A stretch of 64,000 nucleotides of DNA. Origin: Chiloscyllium plagiosum. Lineage: Eukaryota. Shown piece after piece: positions 7,508 through 58,149 of this stretch. The notes beneath the pieces were generated by a model, which was given only the letters and a program-made list of their open reading frames with translations, did not search any database and had not been told where the DNA came from. Location of the stretch: the NCBI RefSeq assembly GCF_004010195.1, contig NC_057718.1, forward strand, positions 49,050,021 to 49,114,020, read 5' to 3'. Position numbers and translations under genes: made by a program. Positions within the stretch are counted from its first letter, which is position 1, and every line of letters starts with the position of its first letter.

Positions 7508-7547
7508 GAGTTCTGAGGAAGGGTCACTGGACCCGAAATGTTAACTC
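7508..7547 (+). ncRNA. Minimal type I hammerhead motif (PLE family D), start of a solo arm running to about 7625
   Basis: gagtt-CTGAGGA-a-gggtc(actg)gaccc-GAAA-tg-TT-aactc: 5-bp helix I, 5-bp helix II; predicted cleavage after 7542. Confidence 0.75.
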
Positions 7548-9600
7548 TGATTTCTCTCTCCACAGATGCTGCCAGACCTGCTGAGCTTATCCAGCAATTC
7601 CTATTCTAGTTCCAGATTTTTGCAGTTGTGGCAGTAATCGAGCCTCCGAAAATAGACAATTAAGCCGGGCCCAGCAACAGGGAAAGAAGTGTATTTAAGG
7701 GCCTCACAGCTGTCAAAACTTAAAACTTAGTCCGAGCTCTACAAATGCATTGCTGCCTCAGAGCTTGCATTCTGAAAACCCTATCCTAAGGTTACACATT
7801 GGGAATCCCTATTCTATAATGTCAGACCCCCTGGCAAAGTCTTATCTGTTTCAACATAACCATTTCCCATTCTTCTAAATTCCATCATAACACCAATCTC
7901 ATCAGATGTATGTGCATAAAAAGCAGTCATTGAGACTGTGCAGACTTATCAGAAAGTTGCAAGAAAGGAAGAGAGTAGTATATCTGTTGTTATGAAACTA
8001 GAAAAGAGGTCTGTCATAGAGTGAAAAAAATGTTCAATGATAATCTTCTGAGGGAAAGATCTATTCATTTCTCCCTCAGCTGTAAAGGTAAACATCAGGA
8101 TCCCACATGCATGTGCAAAGGGTGGAATACATCTTTAAGGCAGCTATTAGTAACTTCTACTGTTTCAGCCACTGTGGCATAGAGCATCTTTCTGGTGCAC
8201 TTGTGGCTCATGACATAGTTCCAAAATTAAAATGTTTGATCTAATTTTATCGCCGAAAAAATGTTTAATTGTGCCCTCTATTGGAACTTGAACTCTGAAG
8301 ATTGTTAGTCCAGAATCTCTGTGGAAGGCCCACTGGGGTGAATGCAGAGTGGGTCAAGACACATAAAATATATTAAAAAGACAGATTTGCTGCATCTGTA
8401 CTTTAAAAGTGAATTCCAGTATACTGGTATACATCTGGTCTCAAAACAAACACATCAGACCAAAAACTCAAACTAAAAGATTTCACTGTTTTGGAACTTG
8501 TCTTTTCAGTCCAGATTACATTTTCTTTCTAGATTACATGTTCACCATCCATGTCAGTTGCTAATATTTTATATCAATACACTAATTTTTAAATTACTTA
8601 TGGAGTTATTGTGAAAGGGAAAGGAAAGGGTCAAAATATCTTTCCTATTTTTAAAAACATAAAGCAAAGTCGGCTATGGTGAGGTTTGTGGCAGAATCAA
8701 ATGACAGGTCTGATGAGGCCCATCTTAAGTTTGAAGTAAGCAAGCTGTGTCACTTGTGCTTTTGCCAAGCCTTGTTAATGAAGGCAGATTATAATTTATT
8801 AAATGGCTTCTAATGTCATTACATTCTTCATTAACATAAAGCTTCCTATCTTTCCAAACAAGCTAGATGTTGATAATTCTTAACATGGAAGTCAGAGTGA
8901 GTACCTGACAACTTCAGCACACCATTTGCTCCAAAGCTTCTCCATGTTGGACATGGGCACCATCCAATATGTGCCAGCCTTGAAGAACCCACAAGGCACA
9001 TTTCTGTTCCACTCAAGGACACTTCTACCCTTCAATGCTATGCCTTGAGCTGTTGACAGCTGTCATTGTAATTCTGCTGAGCTAAATATATTGCAGTCTA
9101 TTGAAACAAAGGCATTTTAAAAAATATTTTTGTTAATGTCAAGTCAAAAAGTCTAGTATTTATAGGAAGGCTTTCATGTCCTTGGGGCATCCCAGAGCAC
9201 TTGCCAGTTAAGAAGTGTTTTTTGTAATGCTGTCAGCATTGTAATATGATCACACTGTGCACTCAGGGGGAAGGGGGGTGGTGGGTCACCCAGCAAATGG
9301 ACTGGACCAGGCTGAATCTGTGGGGTCTTTGCTTTCTTCATGTTGTACACATTCTGAGCCGAACTTGATGCGCCCAGTATCCCTGTCATGCCATTCCCTG
9401 CCTTTTTATGCTTTGTCTCTTCAGCCAGATTCATGAGGCTCATATTAATCATGTCTTGACTTGCCATTAAGTGCGGACACAAAGCCAGGAGGAAACTTGT
9501 CATGGTTGTCATCAATCTTCAGCCACTTCACTGAACATCGTCTTTGCTCAGGGGAGTTGGCACAGTAAGCCAAGAGCAGCTTCCAATACCAGTCAGTAGC

Positions 9601-9688
9601 TACCTGACGAAGGAGCAGCACGCCAAAAACTTGGACTTTCAAATAAAGCTAGACTATAACCTGGTGTTGTGTGATTTTTAATTTTCTG
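9601..9688 (+). mobile_element. PLE family C solo arm, degenerate
   Basis: acCTGACGAaggagcagc...caaataaa...gactataacctggtgttgtgtgattttta. Confidence 0.7.
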
Positions 9689-10854
9689 TTCTAGGCTGAT
9701 TTCCTTCTAGTTTGAGATACAGGCACGTATTAAATGGATGGCACAGCTGTTAGTTTTGATGTTTTTTGGGTCCTGATTGTGTAGGCAGCACAAAGGGCAT
9801 GCAGGTTAGTAGTGTCAAGGGCTGGGGTGGGGTGAGAAAACTGGGGACGATATTGCAGACAATAGAAAGAATGCTTGAACCTGAACCCTTGCTGGGCTTT
9901 TAAAGATAGGACAGGGCAAGGGGCCCAGTCTGTTGTCAGATATCCAGTCACTGGGGGGGGGGGGGGAGTTTGAGGAATGGCGTGTGGTAAAATGGGGATA
10001 GAACAAAACATGAGGGACACTATGGAATCAGTGTAGATAATTAATGAGATGTGTTTGTTAATATATAGCAAGAAATCTCTCCAGGTCTCACAGCGAGAAT
10101 CCATCCACAAAACCAAAGCAACTTGCACTTAGCCAAAAAGTCATTACGTTGTGTCCATCATTTTGAAACAACAATAGGAATGTCATCAATAGCCATAACA
10201 CTGCGTCTAAGCATCAACCTGCTCCTGAAGCCATTTAACAGGATTAAAATGAAATCACAAACCCTCCCACGATCTCATTCAGAACAACTGAAGGACATTG
10301 GGCTAAATATATTGCAGTCTACTGAAGCAATGACATTTTTTTTATATTTGTGTTAATGTCAAATCCAAAAGTTTAGTATTTATAGGAATGTTTTCATGGC
10401 CTTGGAGCATCCCAGAGCACTTTCCAGCTAAGAAGTGTTTTTTGTAATGCTGTCGGCATTGTAATGTGATTAACATATTGCATATAATCTGTTGTTAGTG
10501 CAACCTGAAAAGAGCCTAACCACCTGATCTCCTTTCATATTGTCCATTTGTCTTCTTTTGAATGTGATTTTTTTAACTCAATTTCCTCTTGAACTGATCT
10601 GTACTTTCACTTTCTGTTCCTGATCATGTAAGGAACCAGTGTACACTGCATTCTGGGACTCTGTTGTTTATTATTTTCCACATTCTATGAAGCAAAACTT
10701 TGAACAAGAATATGCACAATATATGTTGGTAACGTTGTTTTATGTTGGGTAGAAGGGATTATTACATTTTAAAAGGAGACCATTGATCATCCCCTCTCTG
10801 ACTCTGAATGTTTTCACTGATCACAAATCAAATGTGAAGAAGTAAAGTGATCAT

Positions 10855-11045
10855 AGACCTGACCTGATCTCTCATTAGAGTGAGACGATCAGTGATGGTT
10901 GAACCTGAAGGTCATCACACCGTCATTCAAGGAAAAATGTTGAGAAGGCAGGACCTTCATGGGTAACCTCAGCTAGTGCAGGAATTGAACACTTGCTGCT
11001 GGCATTACTCTGCATTGCAAACCTACCATCCAGCTAATTGGCCCC
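10855..11045 (-). mobile_element. tRNA-derived SINE fragment, family not identified
   Basis: Reverse-strand B-box-like gttcaattcctgc within a tRNA-like head. Confidence 0.45.
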
Positions 11046-11518
11046 TCACAGCAAAAGGGATAGTGTCTTCACAGTGAACATTTACGTTGATCTGCTATAA
11101 GTAATTTGAAGCATCACTTTCCCTGCCAATTTATTTCTCAAATCATTTCAGGAAATGTCTTTTAAGTCGTTTTCAGGAAGTTAGATTTTTTACTGTGGTA
11201 ACAACCGGAGGGTTGCTACATACTTAACAGTTAGACCGAAACACTACTGAATGAGAAACCAGGCTCCAAATTAAAGACAGCAATGCAACATACCACTAAG
11301 TGGTTGAAGTATTCTTTAAGAAAAATGTGCTTAGTAAAGTAATTAGAAAAGTGAGGGGTTTTCAAGGTCCGACATAACATGCCTCACGTTCCCTTTGAAT
11401 TGGATTCTCTTTTATCAATTACCCTTTCTTCCAACATTATTCTAAAATAGATATCTCTTAATTTCTCATTAACATAGACAGATGCTAAAAGTAGAGCTAA
11501 AGATGACATACTTATTAG

Positions 11519-13076
11519 GTGGACCTGATCAGGTGTACCCTAAAACTCTGTGGAAAACTAGCCAAGTGATTCCTGGGCCCATTATTAAGATATTTGTATC
11601 ATCGATAGTCACAGGTGAGGTGCCAGAAGACTGGAGGTTAGTTAATGTGGTGCCACTACTTAAGAAAGAGGGGAAGGAAAAGCCAGGGAACTATAGACCG
11701 GTGAGCCTGACATTGGTGATGGGCAAGTTGTTGGAGGGAATCCTGAGGGATAGGACGTATATGTATTTGGAAAGGCAAGAACTGATTAGGGATAGTCAAC
11801 ATGGCTTTTTGCATGGGAAATCATGTCTCATGAATTTGATTGTTTTTTTGAAGAAGTAGTGAAGAGGATTGATGAGGGCAGAGTAGTAGATGTGATCTAT
11901 ATGGAGTTCAGTAAGGCGTTCCACAAGGTCCCTCATGGTAGACTGGTTCGCAAGGTTAGAGCTCATGGGACACAAGGAGAACTAGCTATTTGGATAGAGG
12001 ACTGGCTTGAAAGTAGAAGACATAAGATGGTGGTGAAGGGTTGCTTTTCAGACTGGAGGTCTGTGACCAGTGAAGTGTCACAAGGATTGGTGCTGGGTCC
12101 ACTACTTTTCGGCATTTATATCAATGATCTGGATGTGAACATAGGAGGTATAATTAGTAAATTTGCAGATGACACCAAAATTGGAAGTGTAGTGGACAGC
12201 AAAGAAGGTTACCTCAGAGTACAAAAGGATCTTGATCAGATGGGCCAATGGACTGAGAAGTGGCAGATGGAATTTAATTCAGATAAATGTGAGGTGCTGC
12301 ATTTTGGAAAAGCAAATCAGAGCAGGACTTATACATTTAATGGTAAGGTTCTGGGGAGTGTTGTTGAACAAAGAGACCTTGCAGTGCAAGTTCATAGTTC
12401 CTTGAAAGTAAAGTCACAGGTAGATAGGATAGTGAAGGTGTTTGGTATGCTTTCCTTTATTGATCACAGCAATGAGTACAGGAATTGGGAGGTCATGTTG
12501 CGAATGTACAGGACATTGGTTTGGCCACTTTTGGAATATTACATGTAATTCTGGTCTCCTTCCTATCGGAAAGTTATTGTGAAACTTGAAAGGGTTCAGA
12601 AAAAATTTACAAGGATGTTGTCAGGGTTCGAGGATTTGAGCTATAGGGAGAGATTGAATAGGCTAGAGCTGTTTTTTCTGGAGTGTCAGAGGCTGAGGGG
12701 TGACCTTATAGATATTTATGGAATCATGAGGGGCACAGATAGGGTAAATAGACAAAGTCTTTTCCCTGGGGTGGGGGAGACCAGAACTAGAGGGCATAGG
12801 TTTAGGGTGAGAGGAGAAAGATATAAAAGGCACCTAAGAGGCAGCTTTTTCACGCAGAGGGTGGTACGTTTACGGAATGGGCTGCCAGAGGAAGTGGTGG
12901 AGGCTGGTACAAATACAGCATTTAAAAGGCATCTGGATGGGTATATGAATAGGAAGGGTTTAGATAGATATGAGCCAAGTGCTGTCAAATGGGACTAGAT
13001 TAGGTTGGGATATCTGGTCGGCATGGACTAGTTGGACTGACGGGTCTTTTCCATGCTATACATCTCCATGACTCTG
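11519..13076 (+). mobile_element. 5'-truncated CR1/HER1 LINE, RT pseudogene (frameshift and stop)
   Basis: ORFs 11482-11859, 11823-12548 and 12579-12998 carry PGNYRPVSLT, SQHGF, SKAFHKVPH, QGLVLGPLLF, KFADDTK, RGHRFRV; 3' tail ...ccatgactct. Confidence 0.95.
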
Positions 13077-16039: not shown

Positions 16040-16834
16040 GATGCTAACGTAGAGGTAGGTGATAGCTTCAAGTTCCTAGGAGTAAATATCACCAAAGATC
16101 CACCCGATCCATCCACATGGATGCTACAGTTAAGAAAGCACATCAATGCCTCTATTTCCTCTGGAGGCTAACAAAATTCGACTTGTCTACAATGACTCTT
16201 CCTGAAGAAGGGCTTCTGCCTGAAACGTCGATTCTCCTGCTCCTTGGATGCTGCCTGACCTGCTGCGCTTTTCCAGCAACACATTTTTCAGCTCTGATCT
16301 CCAGCATCTGCAGTCCTCACTTTCTCCTATAATGACTCTTGCCAATTTGCATTGATGCACCATAGAAAACATGCTATCCAGATGCCTCGCAGCTTGGCAT
16401 GGTAACTGCTTTGCCCAAGACTGCAAGAAATCACAGAGTTGTAAATGTAGCCCAGTCCATCACGCAAACCAGCTTTCCTTCCATTGACTCCGTCTATACT
16501 TGCCACTACCTCGGGAAAGCAGCCAACAAAAGACCATTTCCACCTTAGTTCCACTCTCTTTCACTCTCTTCCAACAAGCAGATGATGCAAAAGTTTGAAG
16601 ATATATACAGAGAGATTTAAAAACATCTTCCTTGCTCTTATCAGATTTATGAACGGAACCCTCACATTGATCTTTCTCTGCACCTTCTCTATAGCTGTAA
16701 CACTATATTCTGCATTCTGTTCTATTACCATGATGTACTTGTGTAAGATATGATTTGTCCAGGTGAGCATGCAAAACAATACTTTTCATTGCATCTTGGT
16801 ACATGACAATAAATCAAATCAAATCAAATCAAAT
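16040..16834 (+). mobile_element. Rex1/Babar-type LINE 3' portion, interrupted by a PLE arm
   Basis: Encodes FKFLGV and KKAHQCLYFLWRL, typical of the Rex1/Babar RT C-terminus; tail aataaatc(aaatc)n. Confidence 0.75.
16201..16326 (+). mobile_element. PLE family A solo arm starting at the hammerhead core
   Basis: cCTGAAGAagggcttctgcctGAAACGTCgattc...cactttctc; TSD ctaYaatgactctt at 16187-16200 and 16327-16340. Confidence 0.88.
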
Positions 16835-20039: not shown

Positions 20040-20360
20040 CAAAATTGGAGGTGTAGTGGACAGGGAAGAAGGTTACCTCTGAGAACAATGGGACCCTGAT
20101 CGCAAGGGCCGATGGGTTGATAGGCTGAGGATTGGCAAATGGAGATTAATTTAGATAAATGTGAGTTGTTGCATTTCAGTAAGGCAAATCTGGGCAGGAT
20201 TTATACACTTAATGGTAAAGTCCTGGGGAGTATTGCCAAATATAGTGACCTTGGGGTGCTTGAAGGTGGAGTCACAGGTAAATAGGATGGTGAAGAAGGC
20301 ACTTGGTATGCTTGCCTTTACTGTTCAGTGCATTGATTATAGGAGGTGAGATGTCATGTT
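20040..20360 (+). mobile_element. CR1/HER1 fragment, 5' part of a copy split by a nested insertion
   Basis: Collinear with about 12177-12499; resumes at 23369. Confidence 0.85.
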
Positions 20361-23300
20361 AGAGAGTCATAGAGACTTACAGAGATGTACAGCATGGAAA
20401 CAGATCCTTTGATTCAACTTTTCCATACTGACTAGATATCCCAAATTAATCTCATCCCATTTGTCAGCATTTGGCCCAGATCCTTTCAAACCCTTTCTAT
20501 TCATATACCCATACAGATGCCTTTTAAATGTTGTAATTGTACCAGCCACCAACATTTCCTGTGGCAGCTCATTCCATACATACATCACCCTCTGCGAGAA
20601 AAACCTGGCCTGTAGGTCCCTTTTAAATTTTTCCCGTCTCACCCTAAACCTATGCACTGCAGTTCAGGACTCCCCCACCCCAGGGAAAAGACCATGCCCA
20701 TTTATCCTACCTATGCCTCTTGTGGTCCCTCATTTCCAATGTTCCAAGGAAAACAGCCCCAGCCTGTTCATCCTCTCCCTGTAGCTCAAATCCTCCAACC
20801 ATAGTAACATCCTTGTAATCTATTCTGAACCCTTTCAAGTTTCACAATATCCTTCAGTTAGGAGGGAGACCAGAATTGCACACAGTATTCCAAAAGTGGC
20901 TGATATAATTTCCTGTATAGACAAAACATGACCACCCAAATCCTATACTCAATGCTTTGTCCAAAAAAGGAAATCAGATCTCCACTGTTCTATCTACCTG
21001 TGACTCCACTTTCAAGGAATTATGAACCTGCACACCAAGGTCTCTTTGTTCAGCAACACACCCAGGAGCTTACTATTAAGTGTATAAGGCCTGCTCTGAT
21101 CTGCCTTTTCAGAATGCAGCACCTCACATTTATCTAAATTAAACTCCATCATTCACTCCTCAGCCGAAGGGATCTGATCAAGATCCCTTTGTACTCTGAG
21201 GTAACCTTCTTCGCTATCCACTACACTTCCAATTTTAGTGTCATCTGCAAACTTACTAACTCTACCTCTTATGCTCACATTCAAATCATTTATATAAATG
21301 ACGAAAGTAGTGGATCCAGTACTGATCAATGTGGCACACCACTGGTGTGGATCCAGTACTGATCAATGTGGCACACCACTGGTCACAGGCCTCCATCTGA
21401 AAAGCAACCCTCCACCAGCACCCTCTGTCGTCTACCTTCAAGACAGTTCTGTATCCAAATGGCTAGCTCTCCCTGTATTCCATGAGATCTAACCTTGTTA
21501 ACCAGTCTACCATGAGGAACCTTGTTGAATGCCTTACTGAAGTCCATATAGATCATATCCACTTCTTTGTTACTTCTTCAAAAAACTCAATTAAATTCAT
21601 GAGACATGATTTCCCATGCACAAAGTCATGTTGTCCATCCTTAATCAGTCCTTGCTTTTCCAAATGTATGTAAATCCTGTCCCTCAGGATTCCCTCAACA
21701 ACTTGCTGATGTCAGGATCACCGGTCTATAGTTCCCTGGCTTTTCCTTACCACCTTTCTTAAATAGTGGCACCATGTTAGCCAACCTCCAGTCTTCTGGC
21801 ATCTCACCTGTGACTATCAAGTATCTCAGCAAGTATCTCAGCAAGAGGCCCAGCAATCACTTCCCTAGCTTCCCACAGAGTTCTAGGGTACACCTGATCA
21901 GGTCCTGAGGATTTATCTACCTTTATGCATTTTAAGACATCTAGCACCTTCTCCACTGTAATGTGGACATTTTCCAAAATGTCACCATCTATTTTTCCCC
22001 ACATTCTATATCTGTCATGTCCTTCTTTACAGTAAACACTGATGTAAAATACTCATTTAGTATCTCCCCCATCTCCTATGGTTCCACACATAGGCTGCCT
22101 TGCTGATCTATGAGGTACCCTATTCTCTCCCTAGTTACCCTTTGTCCTTAATATATTTATAAAATCCCTTTGGAATCTCCTTAACCCTATTTGCTAAAGC
22201 TATCCCATGTCCCCTTTTTCCCCTCCTGATTTTCCTCTTAAGTATATTCCTACTGCCTTTATACACTTCTAAGGATTCACTCGGTCGATCCTGTCGATAC
22301 CTTACATATGCTTCCTTCTTTTTCTTCACCAAAACCTCCATTTCTCTAGTCATCCAGCATTCTCTACATCTACCAGCCTTGCCTTGCATCTCAACAGGAA
22401 CATACTGTCTCTAGACTCTGGTTATCGCATTTCTGAAGGCTTCCCATTTTCCAGCTGTCCCTTTACCTGCGAACATCTGCCCCCAATCAACTTTTGAAAG
22501 TTTTTGCCAGTACCATAAAAGTTGGCCTTCCTCTAATTTAAAACTTCAACTTTTAGATGCAGTCTATCCTTTTCCATCACTATTTTAAAACTAATAGAAT
22601 TCTGGTCATTGGCCACGAAGTGCTCCTCCACTGACACCTCAGTCATCTGCCCTGCCTTATTTCCCAAGAGTAGGTCAGGTTTTGCACCTTCTCTATTAGG
22701 TACATCACATACTGAATCAGAACATTTTCTTGTACCTACTTAACAAATTCCTCTTCATCTAAATCCTTAACACTATGGCAGTCCCAGTCGATATTTGGAA
22801 AGTTAAACACCCCCACCATAATTACCATATTATTCTTACAGATAACTGAGATCTCCTTCCAAATTCACTTCACAATTCCCCGCTGACCATTAAGAGTCTA
22901 TAGTACAATCCCAATAAGGTGATCATCCCTTTTCTATTTCTCAGTTCCATCCAAATAACTTCCCTGGATATATTCCCAGGAATATCCTCCCTCAGTACAG
23001 TGGTAATGTTATCCCTTATCAAAAATACTGCTCCCCCTCCTCTCTTGCTCCCCTTTCTATCCTTCCTCTTGCATTTGTATCCTGGAACATTAAGCTGTCA
23101 GTTCTGTCCATCCTTGAGCCATGTGTCTAATTGCTATGATATCCCAGTCACATGTTCCTAACCATGCCCTGAGTTCATCCATCTTCCCTGTCGGACCCCT
23201 TGCATTGAAATAAATGCAGTTTAATTTACCACTCCTACCTTGTTCTCTGCTTTGTTCCTGCCTGCCCTGACTGTTTGACTCACTCCTTTTCCCTATTGTA

Positions 23301-23368: not shown

Positions 23369-23945
23369 CATGATGCAGCTGTACATTGGTTAGGCCATTT
23401 TTAGAATTCCGTGTTCAGTCCTGGGCTTTCTGCTATAGATGTTGCTATACTTTAAAGCTTTCAGAAAAGATTTACAAGGACATTGCCGGGTCTGGAGGAT
23501 TTGAGCTATAGGGAGAGGTTGAATAGGGTAGGGCTATTTTCCCCGGAGCATCGGAGGCTGAGATGTGATCTTATAGAGGTTTATAAAGTCATGAAGGGCA
23601 TGGATTGGGTGAATCGCCAATTTCTTCCTCCCAGGGTAAGTGAGTCCAAAACTAAAGGAAGTAGGTTTAAGTTGAGAGAGGAAAATTCAAAGAGATCTGA
23701 GGGGCAACTTTCATGCAGAGTGTAGTGTTTGTATGGAATAAGCTGCCAAAGGAAGTGGAGGAGGCTGGTACAATTACAACATTTAAAAGTCATCCAGATG
23801 GGTGTATGAATAGGAAGGGTTGTGAGGGAGATGGGCCAAATGCTGGCAAGTGGGGCTAGCTTAATTTAGGATACTTGGTCAGCATGGATGTGTTGGACTA
23901 AAGGATTAATATTGGTGCTATAAAACTCTACAACTTTATGACTCA
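23369..23945 (+). mobile_element. CR1/HER1 3' part continuing 20040-20360
   Basis: Encodes LSYRERLNRVGLFS...RLRCDLIEVYK; tail tatgactc. Confidence 0.88.
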
Positions 23946-24054
23946 TTGCAGGCTTGATATCTCCATTCAAGCAGATTGCTCCTTGCAAATGCAACATTGT
24001 TGCTGCTACAACCAATGTATTTTCCTTTGCAAAGTGTTATTTTCAAAAGGTTGA

Positions 24055-25765: not shown

Positions 25766-26033
25766 TTGCTGTGGTTCTGTTCGCCGAGCTGGAAGTTTTT
25801 GTTGCAAACGTTTCGTCCCCTGTCTAGGTGACATCCTCAGTGCTTGGGAGCCTCCTGTGGGACAGGCCACTATAAATGCCGGAGGAAACACCACAGACGC
25901 GCTTCACAGGAGGCTCCCAAGAACTGAGGATGTCACCTAGACAGGGGACGAAACGTTTGCAACAAAAACTTCCAGCTCGGCGAACAGAACCACAGCAACG
26001 AGCACCCGAGTTACAAATCTTCTCACAAACTTT
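25766..26033. mobile_element. PLE family B inverted-pair mini-element
   Basis: 94-bp arms 25766-25859 and 25905-25998 with one mismatch, a TATAAA-containing spacer and a tail on the right arm only; perfect TSD ggatcatacctt at 25756-25767 and 26034-26045. Confidence 0.9.
25804..25843 (-). ncRNA. Minimal hammerhead motif (PLE family B)
   Basis: gca-CTGAGGA-t-gtcacct(agac)aggggac-GAAA-CG-TT-tgc; helix I gca/tgc, palindromic ACGU helix III. The plus-strand twin at 25921-25960 has a helix I mismatch. Confidence 0.75.
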
Positions 26034-26264
26034 GGATCATACCTTATTTAGAATTCTTTAAACTTTCTTAATCAAAGCTAAAGACCAATTTCAATTTTAA
26101 ATACTTGACAGTAGAAATATTCTCTTGATAAAGTTTACCAACATAGTCATTCAGCCTGCCCTGGCACCCAGTCCCATTGATGATTTTAACATTTCCTTGT
26201 GATGCCACTCTTGGAATATTTTCAGCTTTTCAACTCCTGGTCTATTTGAGGCTCTCTCTTAGTG

Positions 26265-28590: not shown

Positions 28591-28913
28591 CAACTGAGAC
28601 AAGTTGCTGGTTCCCAGATTGGTAACCAGGGCACCTACCCTGCCAGACAGGACTCCAGTTGCTGCAATTTGGGGCAATTGGAGAAATAGATAGCTGGGGT
28701 GGGAATCAAGAGGGTGGGCTTTGAAAGCCATTCCTTGCACTTGGTTATAAGCACCCAACCTCCCTGTCTTGTGATTTCCCATGCCAGGAGAAGCAAAAGA
28801 AAGCAAATCTATCTTCTTGCTGTTGCATGCTTGAGAAATAGGCCTGGACCAAGTGCTTGGATCTGGAAGCTGCCTGTCTTTAGGTTGGGACACCATTGTT
28901 GAGGGTACATTAA

Positions 28914-30150
28914 TCATAGAGAGTCATAGAGATGTACAGTACAAAAACTGACCCTTTGGTCTAACTCATCCATGTTGACCAGATATCCTAAATTAATCAA
29001 GTCTCATTTGTCAGCACTTGATCCATATCCGTCTAACCCCTTTCTATTCATATACCCATCTAGATGCCTTTTAAATGTTGTAATTGTACCAGCCTGGCAG
29101 GTACAATTCACTGGCAGCTCATTCTACATACGCACTACTCTCTATGTGAAAAAGTTGCCTCTAAGGTCCCTTTTAAATTTTTCCCATCTCATCCTAAACC
29201 TATGCTCTCTAGTTCTGGACTCCCCTACCCTAGGAAAAAGATCTTGTCTATTTAGCCTATCCATGTCCCTCATGATTTTGTTAACCTCTATAAAGTCACC
29301 CCTCAGCTTTCAATGCTCCAGAAAAAATAGTCTCAGCCTGTTCAGCCTCTTCCTATAGCTCAAATCCTCCAACTCTGACAACATCCTTGTAAATCTTTTC
29401 TGATCCGTTTCAAATTTCACAACATTTTTCTCATAGGAGGGAGACCAGAATTGCACACAATATTCCAAAATTGGACTAACCAATGTCCTGTACAGCTGCA
29501 ACATGACCTCTCAACTACTGTACTCAATGCTCTGACCAATAAAGGAAAACCGACCAAATGCCTTCTTCATTATCCTATTTACCTGCGACGCCACTTTCAA
29601 GGAACTATAAATCTGCACTCCAAGGTCTCTTTGTTCAGCAACACTCTCTAGGATTTTACCATTAAGTGTATAAGTCCTGTTCAGATTTACTTCCCCAAAA
29701 TGCAGCACCTCGCACTTATCTAAATTAAACTCCATCTGCCACTCCTTAGCCCATTGGCCTATCTGATCAAGATCCCTTTGTACTCTGAAGTAATCTTCTT
29801 TGCTACCTAACACATCTCCAATTTTGGTATCATCTACAAACTTACTCACCAGACCTCTTATGTTCAAATTCAAATCATTTATATAAATGATAAAAAGCAA
29901 TGGACCCAGAACCGATCCTTGTGGCACACCACCGGTCACAGGCCTCTAGTCTGAAAAGCAACCCTCCACTACCACCACCATCTGTCTTCTACATTCGAGC
30001 CAGTACTGTATCCAAATGGCTAGTTCTCCCTGTATACCATGCGATTTAACCTTGCTATCCAGTCTACCGTGAGGAACCTTGTCGAATGCCATATAGATCA
30101 TGTCTGCCACTCTGCCCTCATCAATTCTCTTCATTGCTTCTTTAAAACAT
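28914..30150 (-). mobile_element. CR1/HER1 LINE 3' 1.2 kb, RT pseudogene
   Basis: ORF 29511-29939 GVPQGSVLGPLLFIIYINDL...KFVDDTK; tail catagagagtcatagag. Confidence 0.93.
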
Positions 30151-31734: not shown

Positions 31735-32338
31735 AGCTGAAAAATGTGTTGCTGGAAAAGTGCAGCAGGTCAGGCAGCATCCAAGGAACAGGAGAATAGA
31801 CATTTCGGGCATAAGCCCTTCTTCAGGAATGAGGAAAGTGTGCCCAGCAGGCTAAGGTAAAAGGTAGGGAGGAGGGACTTGGGGGAGGGGTGTTGGAAAT
31901 GCGATAGGTGGAAGGAGGTCAAGGTGAGGGTGATAGGCCGGAGTGGGGTGGGGGTGGAGAGGTCAGAAAGAGGATTGCAGGTTAGGAAGGCGGTGCTGAG
32001 TTCGAGGGATTTGACTGAGACAAGGTGGGGAGAAGGGAAATGAGGAAACTGGAGAAATCTGAGTTCATCCTTTGTGGTTGGAGGGTTCCTAGGCGGAAGA
32101 TGAGGCGCTCTTCCTCCAACCGTCATGTTGCTATGGGCATTTCCAACGCTCCTCCCCCAAGTCCCTCCTCCCTACCTTTTATCTTAGCCTGCTGGGCACA
32201 CTTTCCTCATTCCTGAAGAAGGGCTTATGCCCGAAACGTCGATTCTCCTGTTCCTTGGATGCTGCCTGACCTGCTGCACTTTTCCAGCAACACATTTTCA
32301 GCTCTGATCTCCAGCATCTGCAGTCCTCACTTTCTCCT
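31735..32338 (-). mobile_element. Penelope-like element 3' end with GIY-YIG C-terminal remnant and inverted pLTR (family A)
   Basis: Minus strand 32036-32135 reads IAT*RLEEERLIFRLGTLQPQRMNSDFSSF (PLE endonuclease C-terminus). Inverted arms of about 167 bp at 31735-31902 and 32137-32303; TSD ccagtcactRtcatag at 31721-31736 and 32339-32354. Confidence 0.9.
32209..32244 (+). ncRNA. Minimal hammerhead core (PLE family A), weak helix I
   Basis: attc-CTGAAGA-a-gggc(ttat)gccc-GAAA-C-GTC-gatt; helix I has only 3 of 4 pairs. Confidence 0.65.
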
Positions 32339-33795: not shown

Positions 33796-34004
33796 ATAGA
33801 CGTAAGTAATATGCCAATTTTATACAGCTACCATTTTGAAGCTAATTCAATAAAAATATCGCTGGGATCATGACTAAAGGTGAATATGTTGTAAGGGATA
33901 TATGAGGCTGGAAGCTGTATACCTTCAAGTCAGTTCGAGTGACTGTATAGTAAGAACCATATTATCATTTGACAGAAACAAGGCTTACAAATAGCAAAGC
34001 TGTG

Positions 34005-34191
34005 GAGGTGCCGATTGTTGTGACTAGGGTGGACAAAGTCAGAAGTCACACAATACCAGGATACAGTCCAATAGGTTTATTTGAAACCACAAGCTTTCGG
34101 AGCACTGAAGAAGGAGCAACGCTCCGAAAGCTTGTGATTTCAAATAAACCTGTTGGATTATAATCTGGTGTCATGTGACTTCTGAGTTTTA
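34005..34191. mobile_element. PLE family C inverted-pair mini-element
   Basis: ...cacaagctttcggagca joined to CTGAAGAaggagc(aac)gctccGAAAGCTTgtg; TSD acaaatagcaaWgctStg at 33987-34004 and 34192-34209. Confidence 0.85.
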
Positions 34192-34846
34192 ACAAATAGC
34201 AATGCTCTGCCCCTCATTAGAGTCCGCCCACATGGTTATATTTTGCACAAAATGTTCAACTAGAAAGAGCACTGGCAGTGCAACCCTTATTACCAAATTA
34301 TAGTTCCTCGCCCAAGCCCTCTGTTACATTTTCATTCTTTAAATATCTGAAGTTGCTCCTCGCCACTACTTCTCAAAATCCTTGTTAAATCCACTCTGAT
34401 TTACAAAGATATCTTCCTTCCTTTCATGCTTCATGTTCTGTTTTGCAATGTTCATTCCAGATCCCCTTGTCCTCCTTCCTTGAATTCACTGAACTCTTGC
34501 TTTTTCTAAAGGTCCCCCGTAGCGAATACTCCCAACCATATTAGTGGATGTACCCCCAACTGCCCTATCTTCAGATCAGGCTGACCTTGACAGTGAACTA
34601 AATTTATAACAAGAATCTGAAAAAGAGTATTAAACAATATAAAGTGGTTATAATGCAGCAGGTGCAAGAATAAATGCCTTTCGTAATCACAATTGTGAAG
34701 ACATCTTAAATCAATTCACATTCAATTAATAATCCTTTCACTATTGCAAAGTAGGTGAAGCAAACCATATACAGCATCAGACTCTTAGATATTATTGCTA
34801 TAAGATTACCTTGGCTCATAACTGGTACAATGGGATAATGTCAACT

Positions 34847-34993
34847 AGGAGAAAGTGAGGACTGCAGATGCTGGAGATAAGAGTGGAATGTGGTGCTGGA
34901 AAAGTACAGCAGTTCAGACAACATCTGAGGAGCAGGAGAATCGACATTTCAGGCATAAGCCCTTCATCAGGATTCCAGCACCATACTCTCGAC
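34847..34993 (-). mobile_element. PLE family A arm with a short inverted remnant
   Basis: ggagaaagtgaggactgcagatgctggag...gacatttcaggcataagcccttcatcagga, then ttccagcaccatactctcgac. Confidence 0.82.
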
Positions 34994-39438: not shown

Positions 39439-39909
<471 letters not shown>

Positions 39910-40515: not shown

Positions 40516-42897
40516 AAAATTCATATACCTTTTTGTTTAAGTAAAAGTTTATCATGTAGAAATTTGTCCAAGCTTTCTGAAAAAATGAAAGTTGAGCAGC
40601 AATATGGGCAAAATAGATTTTTGAGCCAACAAAAAGTAAAGAATATCTGCAGTAAATGACTGGCTTCATATAAAATGCCTCAAACTACAAAAAAAAAGAA
40701 ACTTTCATTTGAATTTAGCAACACATTCACCTGAAACATAATGGTTGGCATTTGACAAGGTCTTCAAAAAAACAATTTGTTCTTAATTTTTCAGAATTCA
40801 AAACATGGGCCTTGCTCTCCGTACCATTTATAACTAACCACCACGCAATTAAAAATGCCAACTTTACATATGGACTTAGAACAAATTTGAAAAGGAATTT
40901 CTGGTCTCGGAGATACAATACAGAGAGGTCTGGAACCAGTAGGGAAGCATTTATTTCCTGATCAAAGAAACATCTTTGCACTTGTCAAAATAACAACTAA
41001 ACCCACTCAACTCTAAAGCTCAACAACATTCCAGGTTTTCTGATCACTTCTGCCAAGCAAAATCTTAATGCACAATACTATCACTGATTATCAAGAGGTT
41101 CATAAGGGCAGTGCAGAATAAGTCTAACACATTTGGTAGGCTCAGTGAATGACATATCAAACAAACAGTCTACTCGAGCATAATAAATACAATCAATCCT
41201 GAATTTTAGATGCTGTAGCAATTGAGCAGCTGCAATAATCGTACGTGCTCACAGATAAAAGCAACAAAAACACAAACACTATGAAGAAGAAATCTCCAGC
41301 ACCAGTGACTTAGGGTACATAAAGCAGCTTTACAGAATATGAACTTAGAAATTTTGATTGACCTTGCAATTATTTGGTGCACTTACCACTGCAATTTATG
41401 GCAGGCTTTAATGTATATTGCTTCCTCTTAAAATAATAAAATGAACAATAAGACCTGCAGATGATGTTCCCTAGTCGATCAACAGTTTTAAAAAACCTTT
41501 CATTTCAATGCTACTGTTTAAATACATGCAGCAGCCTAATTGATAGCATTTTCCAATACACCGAATGGCAAGCCCTGCAAAGCAGCACTAGCAAACCACA
41601 AAGAGGAACTGATCTGAAATCTTCAGCCACATAGAAAATGCCGGACGGTGCAATGACATCTTGCTTGAGCCAAGCAAAACGACTTGCTAGCACGGAGAAG
41701 CATTCCGTATATAACCAGATAATCTAAAAAATGCCACACCAGCAATTTTCATCAGCAAGGGTCAAGTGGACAAAGTTGGGAGCTGCTGTCTCAACATTGC
41801 TGGCACCATTGCAGAGCCGCAATTTCATCTAGTCTGGAAGGAGTCATGAGGGACATTAGCACACACTCATGGTTTGTAGGTGGGAACGATGACAATTGGC
41901 AAGTGGTCAAAGGGAAGAACAGCTTTGAGAAAGTATAAAGTGCTTAGATATATCTAAAGTGTTATTCTTCATTGTAGAATTGCAGTTTCTGACCTGATGT
42001 GTGTAAGACTGAAATATCATCATGGCTTTGATATGTTCTTCCCCTTTGATGCTCAGCTCAGTCAGTTGTTCAGCTGTTTTAAAACCATAGCAGATAGCAG
42101 AGTTTTTAGCTGCATTCAAATAATTTAACAGATTCTGCTGAAAGAAGTTTGTTGACAGCTGTTCAGTGGAATCTATTAAGAATGCGTGGCTGACTTCCCA
42201 CCCATTAATGGATTCTGCTCATCAAGGGTTGTTGAAACAGCGGACAAGGGGAAGGGAAATGTGTACATTTTGATTGATTTAGGAGCTAAGAGAATAAATG
42301 TTGTGTAAGTAGATACTACAGAATGCTGGTTTACTTTGAAAGAAAGTTATGAGCTTCTCAAAGACTTCCCAATATTATAGGGCTTGTGAATTCGGTTTAT
42401 AGTGAATGTCAACTGAGAGATATTAGAGAGGTTAAAGATGGTATGGAATGGGGATGAAAGGCTGAGATTAGAGGTTCTCTGGGCTATCTTACTGAACAAA
42501 TGCAGACCTTTCAATCTGGCCACTTTTGAACTAGCCCACTTTCAGTAGCAGACCTGAATCCAAACTGACCCAGCTTCAAATTGATAAAATAGCACCGATG
42601 GGCACTCCCGATTGGGAGGTGGGATCGCAACACTGGGAAATCTCCCTGACTACACATCCCATCTGAAAGAAGAAAATCCAGCTCAGGGTACCAATTTCAA
42701 CATTTGCAACTACTGCCTTCAAGCACAACTTGTTTTCGGAGCAAAGTGCACTGAAGTGTAATTTTAAAGCATTGCAAACTTTCCTAATCCCGCCTTTTGA
42801 ACTGCACATTGTATTAAGGGGTCTTTGTCAACAGACACTTTGAATGTACCTTTGTTTCAAGAATATGAGAAAGAGTACACAGTAAAAAGAAAATTAC

Positions 42898-43266
42898 CAA
42901 TGAATTCAAAGGCCTCTTCGAAGTATTGCCTGAGATTCTGCTTGTTGCTATCAGTGGCAGGTAGCCGTTTGTAACGGAAGATACCTTTCTCGTAATGGTA
43001 AAGAGGCAGATGGGTAGTTACATTGATAATGTAGCCAACATTCATCCGCTGCATTTTTTCAATATCCTGAGCATCCTGCTCATTTCCAAGAAACAGGAAG
43101 GGTAGGATGGGGGTCAGCTCTGCATTTTCAATGTCAGGGGTAGTGGGGATGGACTGAGGTAGTTGAGTTGGAATTGCTGAGGCTGCCCCTGCATCTGGGC
43201 ACTCCTGAAGTTGCAGAGAATGATCACAGAGATTCTCGTGGTGTTGCTTGAAACTGCTATGTCCAC
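42898..43266 (-). CDS. DUSP10: DUSP10/MKP5 penultimate coding exon (end of rhodanese-like domain, linker, first half of DSP catalytic domain)
   Basis: Translates as [22 protein letters not shown]...[29 protein letters not shown]...[25 protein letters not shown], recognisably vertebrate DUSP10. Polypyrimidine tract plus AG acceptor at 43268-43267, GTAATT donor from 42897; 369 bp, phase 1-1. Confidence 0.97.
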
Positions 43267-45529
43267 CTTTGGAAAGAAAGAAAATAGAAGTTAGCCACTT
43301 GTAGAATTCCACGGCATTCCTCGTCCAGCAACTGTACTGTGCAATACTGCACAACTATCACTGCTCTCAAATAGGACATTTTGGCATTTTAGAAAAAAAA
43401 TGTAAAAAACCCTACTAGTTCTTCTATTGCAGCACCACACCCTGGCCATAAAAAGTACGTAACATAGAAGGAGACGATTCAATACAATATTTCAGTCTGC
43501 TACAGCAATCCAGAATTTATCCCACTTTCATCCTGCTTTCTTCCCACAACCTTCATCTCCGTCCACTTCAGTTATTTATCAAACCTCAACCACGTGTTTC
43601 ATTACCGCCATGCTTTGCAAATGGACTTTTGTGCTCTTTTATACAAATACTGCAAATAAATTGGTCTGTGTGCCTTTTATCAAGTAACCCCCAATAACAA
43701 AATTAGCTACAGTGCCTTTTTTAAATACAGTGACAGATTAGTGTTAACAAGGATATGTAGGTCCAAACAGTGATCGATCAGATTACTCACTACCCTGTTT
43801 ATACCGGAACATTCTGGCCACTGCTGTCGGAGGGTCTTTAGATCGGCAACTGGAGACCCTTCCTTGCTTCAGTTTGCCGACCATTTTTGACGTGTAACTG
43901 AGTTCTATGGCATATTATGCCCCTTTTACCTTTGAGATACAACTGAGCATGAAGTAAGTTCTGTCCAATTATGCAGCATTAACTGGCCTAATTTTAAAGT
44001 GGGCCACAGGGGTTTTGATTTTTTTTTAAAAAAAAAGGAGCAAAAGCCCAATTCAATCTTTTGTTTTCACTCCTGATTCCACACAAACATTCTGATGTCC
44101 AGAGATTTTTGCGGGACCGTGACCTTGGGTTCACTTCCCGACTCCAATTGCCAGTGTACTCCATATAGGACCCAGCTGGTCCTTTAGTGGAATGTATTAC
44201 TATGGCAGTCACAATGGATAAAGAGAAACAACTCCTAGTGGGTCACATACCATTCTGAACACTGCAACATGGGAAAGTTCCTGCTGGAATAATGTACAAT
44301 GAAATAGTCTGTCTTGTAAATCTATAAATGATATGTTGCTACAGTATATCAGGCAGGGAATAAAAGCCAAGACCTTGAGTCTTCTGGTAATGGGCCTCAC
44401 TTTCAGACCTTGTGGCTATCAATGTTCAGATCCACAATTATGCCATTACAGAGTGACACAGGTTTCCTAGGTTTGAATTCCGCACAAGATCCTCAAATAT
44501 TAAACCAGCTGATCAGGGTCCCACAGGAACACAGACTTTAGCAGCAGAGTGTAGCGTTTCACAAGATGAAATCCTGCACAATGATACCACCATTGAGATT
44601 CTCTATCAACATTCCACCTGGAATAATAAGTTTAACTCCCAAACATACTGTACAACACATAGGTTAGACTGTAGCTGTTAAAAATCACTGTACTAGTGCA
44701 AGACTGCATTTGAAAATGGTCTATATGGAAGAATACCCATGAGAAGAAAACAGATTCTTGATATTACTCCAATATCTTGTACAACACGGGCAGTGCTTTG
44801 GACACAGGACTGCTTTCAGAACAGAAACTCAGTCGGTCCTGTGGCTTTAGGTTTCTTGGATATTTTCAATGAAAGCCTTTAACAACCTGAATTTTAATGT
44901 GTGACTGTTTTCTGTGGAATGCATTTGCAAAACGAAGATCATTCCTGTGGCTGTCAATTTATACTTAATTTCAGATAAATTGCTGCCTGTGTTTTTCGAA
45001 CACGTTTCTAGCCCAGTTTTCACACACTGCTGAACATTTTTACAGAATATCTAATATAGAATGAATGGATATGAAAACAAGTGAAGAACTCTAGTTCTTA
45101 CCATATTGGCTAGTAGTTGTCAATCAAATGAAAAGGAATTGTGGCCCTTGTATATTTATAATAATGGGCCATAATTTGTTGACAAAATAACAATGAGACG
45201 CATTAACACCAAAGAGTGCAGCATTTTTAGGGGTGGGGCACATGCCTGATTAAACTGAAGTGTCCAAGAAGGACTTCCAACATTAGCTTCACATAAAACA
45301 TCTTGCCAACTACCTCACAGTTAACATGCATTGTATAATAAGACCTTACTTTATCTGTGCAAAGATCTGATAGCTTTGATATGCCCACATCAGTCCAACA
45401 GTCCCTTTAACAATGCAATCACTAATCAACCTCACTCACACAGAACATTAATTAGTACAAGTATCGAATTGCATCTCTCATGTTTAAGAGGCATCAACAA
45501 TAACCAAATTTCAAATCCTTTCTTTAAGG

Positions 45530-47345: not shown

Positions 47346-47560
47346 TGTGTTGCTGGAAAAGCGCAGCAGGTCAGGCAGCATCCAGGGAACAGGAGAATCG
47401 ACGTTTCGGGCATAAGCCCTTCTTCAGCCCTGAAGAAGGGCTTATGCCCGAAACGTCGATTCTCCTGTTCCCTGGATGCTGCCTGACCTGCTGCGCTTTT
47501 CCAGCAACACATTTTCAGCTCTGATCTCCAGCATCTGCAGACCTCACTTTCTCCTCAAAG
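47346..47560. mobile_element. PLE family A perfect palindromic mini-element
   Basis: 82-bp arms 47346-47427 and 47430-47511 are perfectly complementary with a 2-nt loop; perfect TSD attatacagcttc at 47333-47345 and 47561-47573. Confidence 0.95.
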
Positions 47561-49496: not shown

Positions 49497-49710
49497 AGTC
49501 AAGATTAGAGTGTGCTGGAAAAGCACAGCAGGTTAGGCAGCATCCGAGGAGCAGGAAAAAAAAAAACAAAAAACCAAACAAAAAAATAATTAGACGTTTC
49601 GGACAAAATGATTTTCCTGCTCCTTGGATGCTGCCTGACCTGCTGTGCTTTTCCAGCACCACTTTAATCTTGACTCTAATCTCCAGCATCTGCAGTTCTC
49701 ACTTTTGCCA
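49497..49710. mobile_element. PLE family A-related inverted pair with centre deleted
   Basis: Arms gtcaagattagag..gctggaaaagcacagcagg / cctgctgtgcttttccagc..taatcttgac; approximate TSD acaaataaaacagt. Confidence 0.85.
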
Positions 49711-52700: not shown

Positions 52701-52989
52701 CAACGTGCGACTACTTTGTGGGATCATTCTTAATGACATGGACTGTAATGTCTCAAAAAGGCAGCCCAACACCACTTTCTCAGAACAGCTCGGGAATGGA
52801 AACAAATATCAGTTTTACCTTCTACAGTCCCAGAATAAAATCTTCCCTTAATTATTGTGGGGAAATATCTTGCTCCTCCTGATTAACTGCATAAGTGCTC
52901 AACTGAAATTAAGAACTCATTAACTAGGGAACCAGACTGCTAATGAAATGTAGCAATACACTTGGAGCTTGCAATACTATAAAGACAAT

Positions 52990-54269: not shown

Positions 54270-54500
54270 CAGAGGAGGGAAGAGAGAACATGCTCCAAGC
54301 TTGTCTAATATAGAATGGGGGAGAACACCACAAGGATTGAAGAAGTGGTTCTCCAGCCGTAGGGATCCAGATAGACTGTGGGCATAAGCAAAAGGAAACA
54401 GACAGTTGTGGCAGTGAATGACAGACTGCTCCAAGCAACTGGATGCAGCGTCACAAGAAATTCAAATCGGAATGGTTAAGATTAGTGAACCTCCATTTGA
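54270..54500 (+). mobile_element. Harbinger-associated Myb/SANT-like ORF remnant
   Basis: REHAPSLSNIE and WMQRHKKFK resemble the RxPxFSxxEL and TWxQCRKKFxDL motifs of Harbinger Myb/SANT proteins. Confidence 0.5.
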
Positions 54501-56685: not shown

Positions 56686-56916
56686 GGTTAGAGTGGTGCT
56701 GGAAAAGAACAGCAGTTCAGACAGCATCCAAGGAGCAGGGGAAAAAAAAAAATCAATGTTTCGGGCAAAAGCCGTTGATCAGGGATACCCTGATGAAGGG
56801 CTTTTGCCGAAACGTCGATTTTCCTGCTCCTTGGATGCTGTCTGAATTGCTGCACTTCTCCAGCACCACTACTCCAGAATCTGGTTTCCAGCATCTGCAG
56901 ACACTGTTTTTACCAA
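56686..56916. mobile_element. PLE family A-related inverted pair
   Basis: Arms meet at atcagggataccctgat; perfect TSD gttaaatgttaca at 56673-56685 and 56917-56929. Confidence 0.88.
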
Positions 56917-57014
56917 GTTAAATGTTACATACCACTTAGCAGCCAGGCAGTGATCACCACTAATAAAGCGAGAATCTAACCATCACCCAGTGATGTCCAA
57001 TGGTATTACTGAAT

Positions 57015-57141
57015 AGGAGAAAGGTGAGGACTGCAGATGCTGGAGATCAGAGTTGAAGAATGTGGGGCTGGAAAAGCACAGCTGATCAGGCAGCATTCAA
57101 AGAGCAGGAGAATCGATGTTTCGCACACAAGCCCTTCATCA
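57015..57141 (-). mobile_element. PLE family A solo arm, degenerate core
   Basis: ggagaaaggtgaggactgcagatgctggagatc...gcccttcatca. Confidence 0.82.
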
Positions 57142-57931
57142 CGGAATACCCATCAATGCCCTGGAGGTGATTAATGACCAGAAACTGAACTAGACCAGCC
57201 ACATATTGCGCTGTGGCTATAAGTGCCAGTCAGGAACAAGGAATTCTGAGTTGAGTAATGCACCTCTTGTCTCCCTATTCCAAATCAGGAGTGGATGTAT
57301 GACCTCCCTTGTCTGGCTAACTGCAGCTTCAACACCAAACAAGTATGGCACCTTCCAAAACAAAGTACCCTGCTTGTTGGCACCCTGTTCATCACTTTTC
57401 ACATTCATTCCCTTCACCAATGGCAACAGTGTGTACCACCTACAATTTGCACTGCAGTAAGTTAGCATGGCTCCTCAAACAGAAACATCCAAACCCACAA
57501 CTTCTACCACCTAGAAAGACAAGAGTAGCAGATGCATAAATACACCATAACTCACAGGTTCTTTCCAAGTAACACTCTATCTTGAACTGGAACTGTAATT
57601 GCTATCCCTTCACCTGTTGCCAAGCCAAATTTTGGAACTTCCTAACAGTGCTTTGATGTTCCTGCCTCAAGGACCGCAGCAATTCAAGAAAATAGCTCAT
57701 CCCTTTTTCCACTGTATTAGAGACAGGCAATAAGTGCCTGCCTAACCAGTGATACCCACGTTCCACTGAACAAATAAATGCAAGGAACAAACAGGTTCAT
57801 GGCCAGTTTTCACTTACACCTGATGGCAACTGGTATGAGTAGGAGAGTTTGATGGTCAAAATAATTTGCACCCTCAGTTTCCATTGTCCTTTTAAAAGGG
57901 TAAGCAGCTTTTGACTGGCTTAATTGTTTAA

Positions 57932-58149
57932 AGCTGAAAATGTGTTGCTGGAACAGCGCAGCAGGTCAGGCAGCATCCAGGGAATAGGAGAATCGACGTT
58001 TCGGGCATAAGCCCTTCTTCATTCCTGAAGAAGGGCTTATGCCCGAAACATTGATTCTCCTGTTTCCTGGATGCTGCCTGACCTGCTGCGCTGTTCCAGC
58101 AACACGTTTTCAGCTCTGATCTCCAGCATCTGCAGACCTCACTTTCTCC
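57932..58149. mobile_element. PLE family A palindromic mini-element
   Basis: Arms of about 90 bp meeting at cttcttcattcctgaagaag; TSD cttaa(a)ttgtttaaa at 57919-57932 and 58150-58164. Confidence 0.92.

What the first reader, a model, noticed from the sequence alone, without database searches (positions are those of the whole stretch)
7508..58025. Truncation and inversion breakpoints pile up at the 5' edge of the ribozyme core, not at the cleavage site
Seen: solo arms start, and inverted pairs fold back, within about 0-6 nt of CUGANGA at 7508, 9601, 16201, 34105, 34971, 47428, 56785, 57141 and 58021, across three families. Self-cleavage would give an end about 28 nt further 3', after NUH. Inference: reverse transcription stalls or template-switches on finishing the folded or dimerised hammerhead, or the template RNA begins there. 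Either would be a mechanistic clue to how PLE inverted pLTRs form.
Basis: partly seen in the sequence, partly recalled or inferred. Interest (0 to 1): 0.7.

Follow-up and report, generated by a model that had tools for sequence, protein, structure and literature searches.

The report
Penelope stubs stop at RNA cap
Short dead copies of Penelope-type jumping genes pile up 3-9 letters in front of their hammerhead ribozyme, often with an extra G, which likely marks the capped start of the element's RNA rather than a stall at the ribozyme, and so hints that these elements are copied from an ordinary capped, uncut RNA.

Summary
The pile-up is real. In 1.6 Mb of position-chosen tiles of this genome, 5' breakpoints per base at risk are 17-20 times background just before the core in families A (-4..-1) and C (-12..-5), and high in D. 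There is no peak at the cleavage site in A or D. A fourth hammerhead family (B) has none at its core (2 of 76 arms). The peak follows each family's TATA/initiator-like start, not the core. The base in front is an added G in 57, 68 and 48 of the first 100 genome hits (29 expected; 16 of 100 at a control position), where long copies carry C. That is the signature L1 leaves from copying a cap. Inverted pairs have independent junctions (87 types in 89), target duplications, and nearly always one tailed and one untailed arm (80 of 84), which fits priming from both target strands. No RNA 5' ends were observed directly. The scan's earlier notes reached the same reading on other DNA.

The parts
7508..7617 (+). 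Family D arm; reads G + AGTT + core (possible cap G at 7508, predicted start 7509), but upstream similarity to a long D copy makes the 5' end ambiguous
9597..9685 (+). Family C solo arm, 5' end at -7 to -10, untailed 3' end (+85)
16199..16328 (+). Family A solo arm from -3 to the tail end (+126); TSD AATGACTCTT at 16191-16200 and 16331-16340
34003..34189 (.). Family C inverted pair: minus arm from +12 (tailed), plus arm from 0 (untailed), 3-nt overlap CTG
34846..34993 (.). Family A minus arm from -2 (tailed) plus a 21-nt inverted partner at 34973-34993
   Evidence: partner read from the sequence
47346..47557 (.). Family A inverted pair, arms at about 0 and -1, one untailed and one tailed, TSD ATTATACAGCTTC
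56692..56914 (.). Older family A inverted pair, junction at the core edge, TSD GTTAAATGTTACA
57014..57147 (-). Family A solo arm, aligned from +1 (57141); probably from -4 (57147) with a 1-nt insertion
   Evidence: sequence
57932..58149 (.). Family A inverted pair joined through a TCA/TGA microhomology, TSD AATTGTTTAAA
31730..32339 (.). Counter-example: family A pair with long arms; the minus arm reaches the end of the GIY-YIG ORF, the plus arm holds the predicted promoter
32207..32213 (+). Initiator-like TCATTCC; predicted transcription start A at 32209 (-4), which is also the first base of helix I; TTTATC box at 32178 (-35)
   Evidence: start site inferred
25766..26034 (.). Counter-example: family B pair (arms -19 and -65); TATAAAT at 25871-25877 (-53); ATG at 25930 inside the hammerhead opens a frame through the tail
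49497..49709 (.). Counter-example: family A pair whose plus arm starts exactly at the cleavage site (+28, 49610)

Best explanation
The breakpoints pile up 3-9 bases before the hammerhead core, likely because that is the capped 5' end of the element's RNA. The steps are as follows. (1) Inferred: a promoter in the pLTR starts transcription at an initiator-like A (-4 in families A and D, -8 in C; TATA 29-32 nt upstream in D and C), so helix I of the ribozyme is the first thing in the transcript. (2) Shown in the copies, and in vitro for the anole element: reverse transcription starts at one of two internal sites, about +85 and +125. (3) Inferred: when it uses the cap-proximal pLTR it runs off the RNA after 90-130 nt and often copies the cap as an extra G; end-joining trims 0-10 nt, which gives the 3' shoulder of the peak. 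(4) Inferred: both nicked target strands prime, one at each start site, and the two same-sense cDNAs are joined head to head through microhomology or a few filler bases, giving the inverted pair inside one target duplication. (5) Shown: cut RNA is rarely the template. Longer copies would come from the 3' pLTR of read-through RNA.
For: Peak: A 58 events in 558 bases at risk at -4..-1 (0.104) against 18 in 3539 at -95..-31 (0.005); C 15 in 225 at -12..-5 (0.067) against 4 in 1049; D 32 in 193; cut-site zone +25..+33 in A 15 in 2194 (0.007). Solos share it: 24 of 88 A solos at -4..-2, and 7 of 18 C solos at -9..-6. The offset differs between A and C (p=0.0007), and TATA lies at -33 (D), -40 (C) and -53 (B). 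Extra G in the first 100 genome hits, counted by hand: A 57, C 68, D 48, against 28.9 expected; control start at -3, 16 of 100 (Fisher p=2e-9). Genome-wide, 3749 of 9899 A hits have a G not preceded by G. The base before that G is A 48, T 42, C 10, close to background 43/50/7, so the G is single and not a subfamily letter or a helix-I fold-back. Long copies have C there: A 49 of 50, C 9 of 9, D 5 of 5. Pairs: 87 junction types in 89; one tailed plus one untailed arm in 54 of 57 A, 20 of 20 C and 6 of 7 B pairs; TSD of 8 nt or more in 45 of 77 pairs against 0 of 77 swapped flanks; arms of a pair agree at 82 of 86 subfamily sites against 54% between pairs. Literature: untemplated G marks the cap in L1 and SVA (PMC4859970 passages). 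The anole PLE extends both strands from two internal sites, needs no ribozyme cleavage, and 5' template truncation shortens the product (PMC11167929).
Against: No RNA 5' end was observed. The upstream edge is steep but not absolute: genome counts are -5: 4397, -4: 9899, -3: 9824, so -3 is as common as -4 and -5 is well above background. Family A has no canonical TATA (TTTATC at -35/-37). Family B, with a clear TATA, shows only a weak signal at its predicted start -23 (2 arms at -23 among 28 events; G:A 11:2 in 100 hits dominated by CpG decay, p=0.002), and at least one such G is templated by the partner arm. Some G's in A and C are flush with a partner arm or TSD, and the partner-templated share was not measured genome-wide for C or D. 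Family C shows 4 breakpoints at +32, near its cut site. D rests on a thin library of 9 references. No pLTR continuing into an element body was found among 374 tailed arms. The composition tallies come from the first 100 listed hits (contig C1; C1-C2 for B).
Confidence: 0.75

Rival explanations
1. Reverse transcriptase stalls or switches template on finishing the folded or dimerised hammerhead.
For: The peak abuts the core in three families; the breakpoint rate stays raised across 0..+7 (A 0.030); several junctions use microhomologies inside the hammerhead.
Against: Family B has an intact hammerhead and 0 events in 304 bases at risk at -4..-1. The peak shifts between A and C. The added G is position-specific. 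In vitro, ribozyme mutants do not change product size (PMC11167929).
Confidence: 0.08
2. A few short master elements that happen to begin with G at the core edge (SINE- or MITE-like stubs or palindromes) were amplified, so the peak counts descendants and not events.
For: One junction recurs 3 times in the random tiles. The 47428 junction recurs at several loci when searched for directly.
Against: 87 junction types in 89 pairs. The G occurs in both listed A variants, all four C variants and both D variants. The recurrent junctions are the simplest microhomology or 1-nt joins. A master would still need an RNA that starts there.
Confidence: 0.09
3. Palindromes come from self-priming on an antisense template (model of PMC3846280), and the core edge is where the fold-back happens.
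For: Head-to-head palindromic junctions are common; it is the published hypothesis for such junctions.
Against: Solos share the peak. An extra G at the sense 5' end points to a capped sense template. Fixed tail/no-tail pairing inside one TSD, and fillers or offsets at most junctions, fit two primers better. In vitro work used a sense template (PMC11167929).
Confidence: 0.05
4. Longer palindromes lost their centres after insertion, or alignments simply fail where the conserved ribozyme ends.
For: Upstream 3' UTRs vary between subfamilies; N gaps often sit at pair centres (15 A arms censored); site 7508 is ambiguous.
Against: The peak is the same in young copies (identity 95% or more: 30 events in 260 bases) and in TSD-flanked solos. 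Simulated miscalls are 6-12%. Deletion adds no G.
Confidence: 0.03

Closest known systems
Endonuclease-positive Penelope-like elements with 5'-truncated copies, inverted 5' partner and optional 30-40 bp tail (PMC8557442 passages; PMC3846280 passages)
   Same: GIY-YIG ORF end, 3' UTR and hammerhead in the pLTR; head-to-head inverted copies; tail on one arm; TSD of 8-16 nt; putative TATA and Inr in a pLTR was noted for Adineta Pen2a.
   Different: Those passages treat 5' truncation as variable. I saw no statement of a fixed breakpoint at a start site, of an added G, or of strict tail/no-tail pairing as two priming events.
Poseidon element of the green anole, PAc (PMC11167929, parts 1-3 of 4 read)
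   Same: Two internal RT start sites that define the tail; both strands extended; uncut RNA used; no reads at the cut site; ATG inside the hammerhead, as in family B here.
   Different: It is an in vitro study that did not map the natural RNA 5' end or explain inverted pairs, and it found no difference in start site between strands, whereas pairs here use one of each.
L1/SVA untemplated 5' G and L1 twin priming (PMC4859970 passages)
   Same: Extra G at the 5' end of copies that reach the RNA start; inversion by a second primer from the other target strand, with small indels at the junction.
   Different: L1 primes at a poly(A) 3' end and its two cDNAs cover different parts of the RNA. Here both cover the same 90-130 nt, giving a palindrome.
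Minimal type I hammerheads of PLE pLTRs (PMC4209133, parts 1-2 of 4 read) and the D. virilis Penelope pLTR promoter (PMC2377424 passages)
   Same: Minimal core, short helix I, palindromic helix III; transcription starts within the pLTR.
   Different: That paper proposes cleavage to process precursors into templates, but copies here rarely start at the cut. D. virilis has a TATA-less promoter and an intron that ends at helix I; families A and C have no AG acceptor at the breakpoint.

Membership tests
EN+ Penelope-like element | RT followed by a C-terminal GIY-YIG endonuclease upstream of the pLTR | tested here: met
   Family A: GIY-YIG hit E=7e-4, 20.3 bits, below Pfam's cut-off of 22.6; YIDD RT motif upstream of an A hammerhead in L149. 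Family B: YIGQTG motif seen by eye, no Pfam hit. No clean ORF recovered for C or D.
EN+ Penelope-like element | Type I minimal hammerhead in the pLTR, in sense orientation | tested here: met
   CUGANGA, helix II and GAAA in all four families; helices I and II in the predicted fold for A1b and D. Rfam did not report it. Activity not tested.
EN+ Penelope-like element | Optional 30-40 bp tail and inverted 5'-truncated partner within one TSD | tested here: met
   Bimodal 3' ends in A, B and C; pairs and TSDs. No clear bimodality in D.
EN+ Penelope-like element | Partial tandem: pLTR followed by a full-length body | tested here: inconclusive
   None found among 374 tailed arms; the sample is under 0.1% of the genome.
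Penelope/Poseidon versus Neptune clade | RT phylogeny; Zn-finger-like linker in Neptune | not tested
   No tree built. A has a cysteine-rich stretch before GIY-YIG and B has the ATG in the hammerhead like PAc; the clade labels are recalled leads only.
Non-LTR retrozyme | Head-to-tail tandem units, each with a hammerhead | tested here: not met
   The window's copies are solos or head-to-head pairs; definition from 10.64898/2026.07.22.740005 part 1.
Cap-terminated retrocopy (L1-type signature) | Untemplated G at a fixed 5' position | tested here: met
Cap-terminated retrocopy (L1-type signature) | Capped RNA shown to start at that position | not testable with these tools
   Only poly(A) single-cell reads of a related organism and contigs were available.

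The most novel reading that the evidence does not exclude
In these Penelope elements the hammerhead is the very first structure of the capped transcript, so self-cleavage acts as a decapping switch: it removes the cap and about 32-37 nt (and the start codon in family B) and takes the RNA out of the copying pool. Each inverted pLTR is made in one step by a dimeric enzyme that primes both target strands at two fixed sites of the cap-proximal RNA.
Probability: 0.35. Interest if true: 0.7.

Novelty: new variant of a known kind. Interest (0 to 1): 0.5.

Why it matters
How Penelope-like elements form inverted pLTRs, which RNA strand they copy, and what their hammerhead does are stated as open in the papers read (PMC8557442, PMC3846280, PMC11167929). 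The genomic copies give base-level predictions: the transcription start per family, a capped sense and uncut template (against antisense self-priming and against cleavage making the template), and one tailed plus one untailed primer per pair. All can be tested with 5' RACE and the existing in vitro PAc assay. The elements themselves are ordinary, abundant repeats.

Tried and rejected
Rfam scan of the window: no hammerhead family reported; only sub-threshold miRNA-hairpin hits on the palindromes. A search for family C copies by their 3' part returned nothing, so C rests on the random tiles and pattern counts. My first breakpoint pass used natural references that themselves held inversions further upstream and misplaced family B; it was redone with references cut to 105 nt. 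72 of 728 candidate arms failed the anchor check, and such arms were dropped from the counts. Calls at -8/-10 in inverted A pairs are often alignment run-on into the partner arm, so the -12..-5 bin of A is overcounted. RNA evidence: no RNA holder listed. Laying single-cell poly(A) reads of a related organism and contigs showed no place where many molecules begin, and reads lay on both strands; this is no test of the start site. A splice acceptor at the core edge, as in D. virilis, was rejected for A and C (no AG; no shared upstream exon; random base before the G); D has TCAG at -6..-3 and a second mode at -2, left open. Helix-I fold-back as the source of the G was rejected for A (base before G is not fixed). 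Literature searches listed no paper on a cap G or a start-site pile-up in PLEs; the library lacks most subscription papers and I read no supplements, which may bear on this (e.g. Fig. S2 of PMC11167929).
Full report
Setting. The window is G000:C9:49050021-49114020 of a 3.56-Gb genome. It holds exons of a dual-specificity phosphatase gene and LINE RT fragments. A descriptor search and clustering found four families of minimal type I hammerheads, here A to D. Long copies show that the hammerhead lies in sense orientation downstream of the ORF end. Family A carries a GIY-YIG motif (weak Pfam hit) and an RT YIDD motif further upstream; family B has a YIGQTG motif and an ATG inside the hammerhead that opens a frame through the tail. 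These are pLTR pieces of endonuclease-positive Penelope-like elements. Positions below are relative to C3 of CUGANGA; the first base after the cut is +28 in A.

The nine sites. All lie at a core edge. Four need corrections: 9601 extends to at least -7, 57141 probably to -4, 34971 has a short inverted partner, and 7508 is ambiguous.

Genome sample. I took 160 tiles of 10 kb at round coordinates on 20 chromosomes. For B and D I added loci picked by their 3' part only. Copies were found by the part 3' of the cut site, so selection is blind to the 5' end, and were aligned to consensus and natural long references. Breakpoints per base at risk: A (276 arms) 0.104 at -4..-1, 0.030 at 0..+7, 0.007 at +25..+33, 0.005 at -95..-31; young A copies give the same picture (0.115). 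C (77 arms) 0.067 at -12..-5 and 0.053 at -4..-1 against 0.004, with 0.012 at +25..+33 from four events at +32. D (128 arms) 0.166 at -4..-1. B (85 arms) 0 at -4..-1 and flat elsewhere. Of arms reaching +7, 126 of 200 (A), 32 of 53 (C), 40 of 50 (D) and 2 of 76 (B) end in -12..+7. Simulated upstream breakpoints were miscalled into that zone in 5 of 80, 7 of 72 and 9 of 76 cases. The pile-up is real, it is not at the cleavage site, and it is not a property of every hammerhead.

What fixes the position. Long copies show core-promoter-like motifs (their function is inferred, and the motif definitions are from my own knowledge). D has TATA at -33 and TCAGTT with A at -4. C has TATAAA at -40 and CCA with A at -8. 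A has TCATTCC with A at -4 and a non-canonical TTTATC at -35/-37. B has TATAAA at -53, predicting about -23. The peak follows these: A mode -4/-3, C mode -8/-9 (Fisher p=0.0007 for -10..-6 against -5..-1; a rank test over -12..+1 was not significant, p=0.15). Solos, which have no partner arm, show the same modes, and many have TSDs.

The extra G. Exact genome-wide patterns with a non-consensus base in front gave, for family A, 4397 hits at -5, 9899 at -4 and 9824 at -3. Among the first 100 listed hits (hand counts) the base before the predicted start was G in 57 (A), 68 (C, of 3971 hits) and 48 (D, of 2038 hits), against 28.9 expected from local dinucleotides (p=6e-9, 7e-16, 6e-5). Before the -3 control it was G in 16 (25 expected). 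In A, 3749 hits have a G not preceded by G, which excludes the partner arm's CAGG end, and the base before the G is A 48, T 42, C 10, as in background. Long copies carry C at that place (49 of 50, 9 of 9, 5 of 5). One pair (L082) has G-ATTCC on both arms. For L1 and SVA an untemplated 5' G is read as the copied 7mG cap (PMC4859970, passages). Against this reading: -3 starts are as common as -4 and are preceded by C in 46 of 100, reflecting a TTC/GAA microhomology; -5 is above background; B shows only G 11: A 2 at -23 amid CpG decay; and some G's are flush with a partner arm or TSD.

How the inverted pairs form. In the random tiles 89 pairs show 87 junction types, so they are independent events. 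3' ends are bimodal in A (about +81-96 and +126), B (+72-78 and +111) and C (+81-87 and +120-123): this is the known tail. Pairs combine one tailed and one untailed arm in 54 of 57 A, 20 of 20 C and 6 of 7 B cases, and either arm may reach further 5' (27 against 24, 3 ties). TSDs of 8 nt or more flank 45 of 77 A and C pairs against 0 of 77 controls. Arms of a pair differ by 2.3% against 8.1% between pairs (29 young pairs, some from targeted loci). PMC11167929 (parts 1-3 of 4 read) shows that the anole enzyme cuts and extends both strands, starts at two internal sites matching the tail, shortens its product when the template's 5' end is cut, and does not need ribozyme cleavage. The simplest reading, which is inferred, is that each target strand primes at one site, both cDNAs run towards the cap, and they are joined by microhomology or filler. 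Whether one or two RNA molecules serve is not resolved.

Comparison with print. Inverted 5' copies, tails, TSDs and pLTR promoters are known (PMC8557442, PMC3846280, PMC2377424, PMC9977147: passages; PMC4209133: parts 1-2 of 4; 10.64898/2026.07.22.740005: part 1 of 5 and passages). PMC3846280 notes a putative TATA and Inr in one pLTR and proposes antisense self-priming for the palindromes. PMC4209133 proposes cleavage to make templates. Seven searches listed no report of a start-site pile-up with a cap G in PLEs, but the library is incomplete and I read no supplements. After I had recorded my reading, the scan's index returned four earlier AI notes with the same cap interpretation, two on this genome. 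They are not independent evidence. What I tested here myself includes the family-specific shift, the peak-less family B, the -3 and -5 controls and the tail/no-tail pairing.

Verdict. The elements are of a known kind; the mechanistic detail is testable and bears on open questions. Interest 0.5.

Noticed in passing
window 39439-39909 and 42857-43354, minus strand: Exons of a dual-specificity (MAP kinase) phosphatase gene (Pfam DSPc); the DUSP10 label is recalled, not tested.
   Followed up: partly
window 11796-12548 (+), with related inverted copies near 20100-21800, 23400-23950 and 28900-30100: LINE reverse-transcriptase fragments (RVT_1) of an abundant dispersed family, about 75-90% alike.
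   Followed up: no
L082:9235-9238 (G000:C12:10009235): Inverted pair in which both arms start G-ATTCC with only AT between them: two putative cap-ended cDNAs joined directly.
   Followed up: partly
G000:C1:18547208-18547255 and 19034661-19034708: Perfect palindromes in which both arms start at -4 and overlap by the self-complementary AT (listing).
   Followed up: no
family B, e.g. window 25766-26034, L201-L230: Young hammerhead family with a clear TATA and an ATG inside the ribozyme, yet mostly long arms and almost no start-site stubs; why it differs from A, C and D is unexplained.
   Followed up: partly
family D copies: Many D arms read A-TT-CTGA instead of A-GTT-CTGA; possibly an unsampled subfamily starting at -3, or use of the TCAG as a splice acceptor.
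   Followed up: no
L201, L203, L204, L050 and others: Assembly N gaps often sit at the centre of inverted pairs, so short-read assemblies undercount some junction classes.
   Followed up: no
window 195-473: A family C inverted pair with a family A solo arm starting right at its 3' end: nested or adjacent PLE insertions.
   Followed up: no
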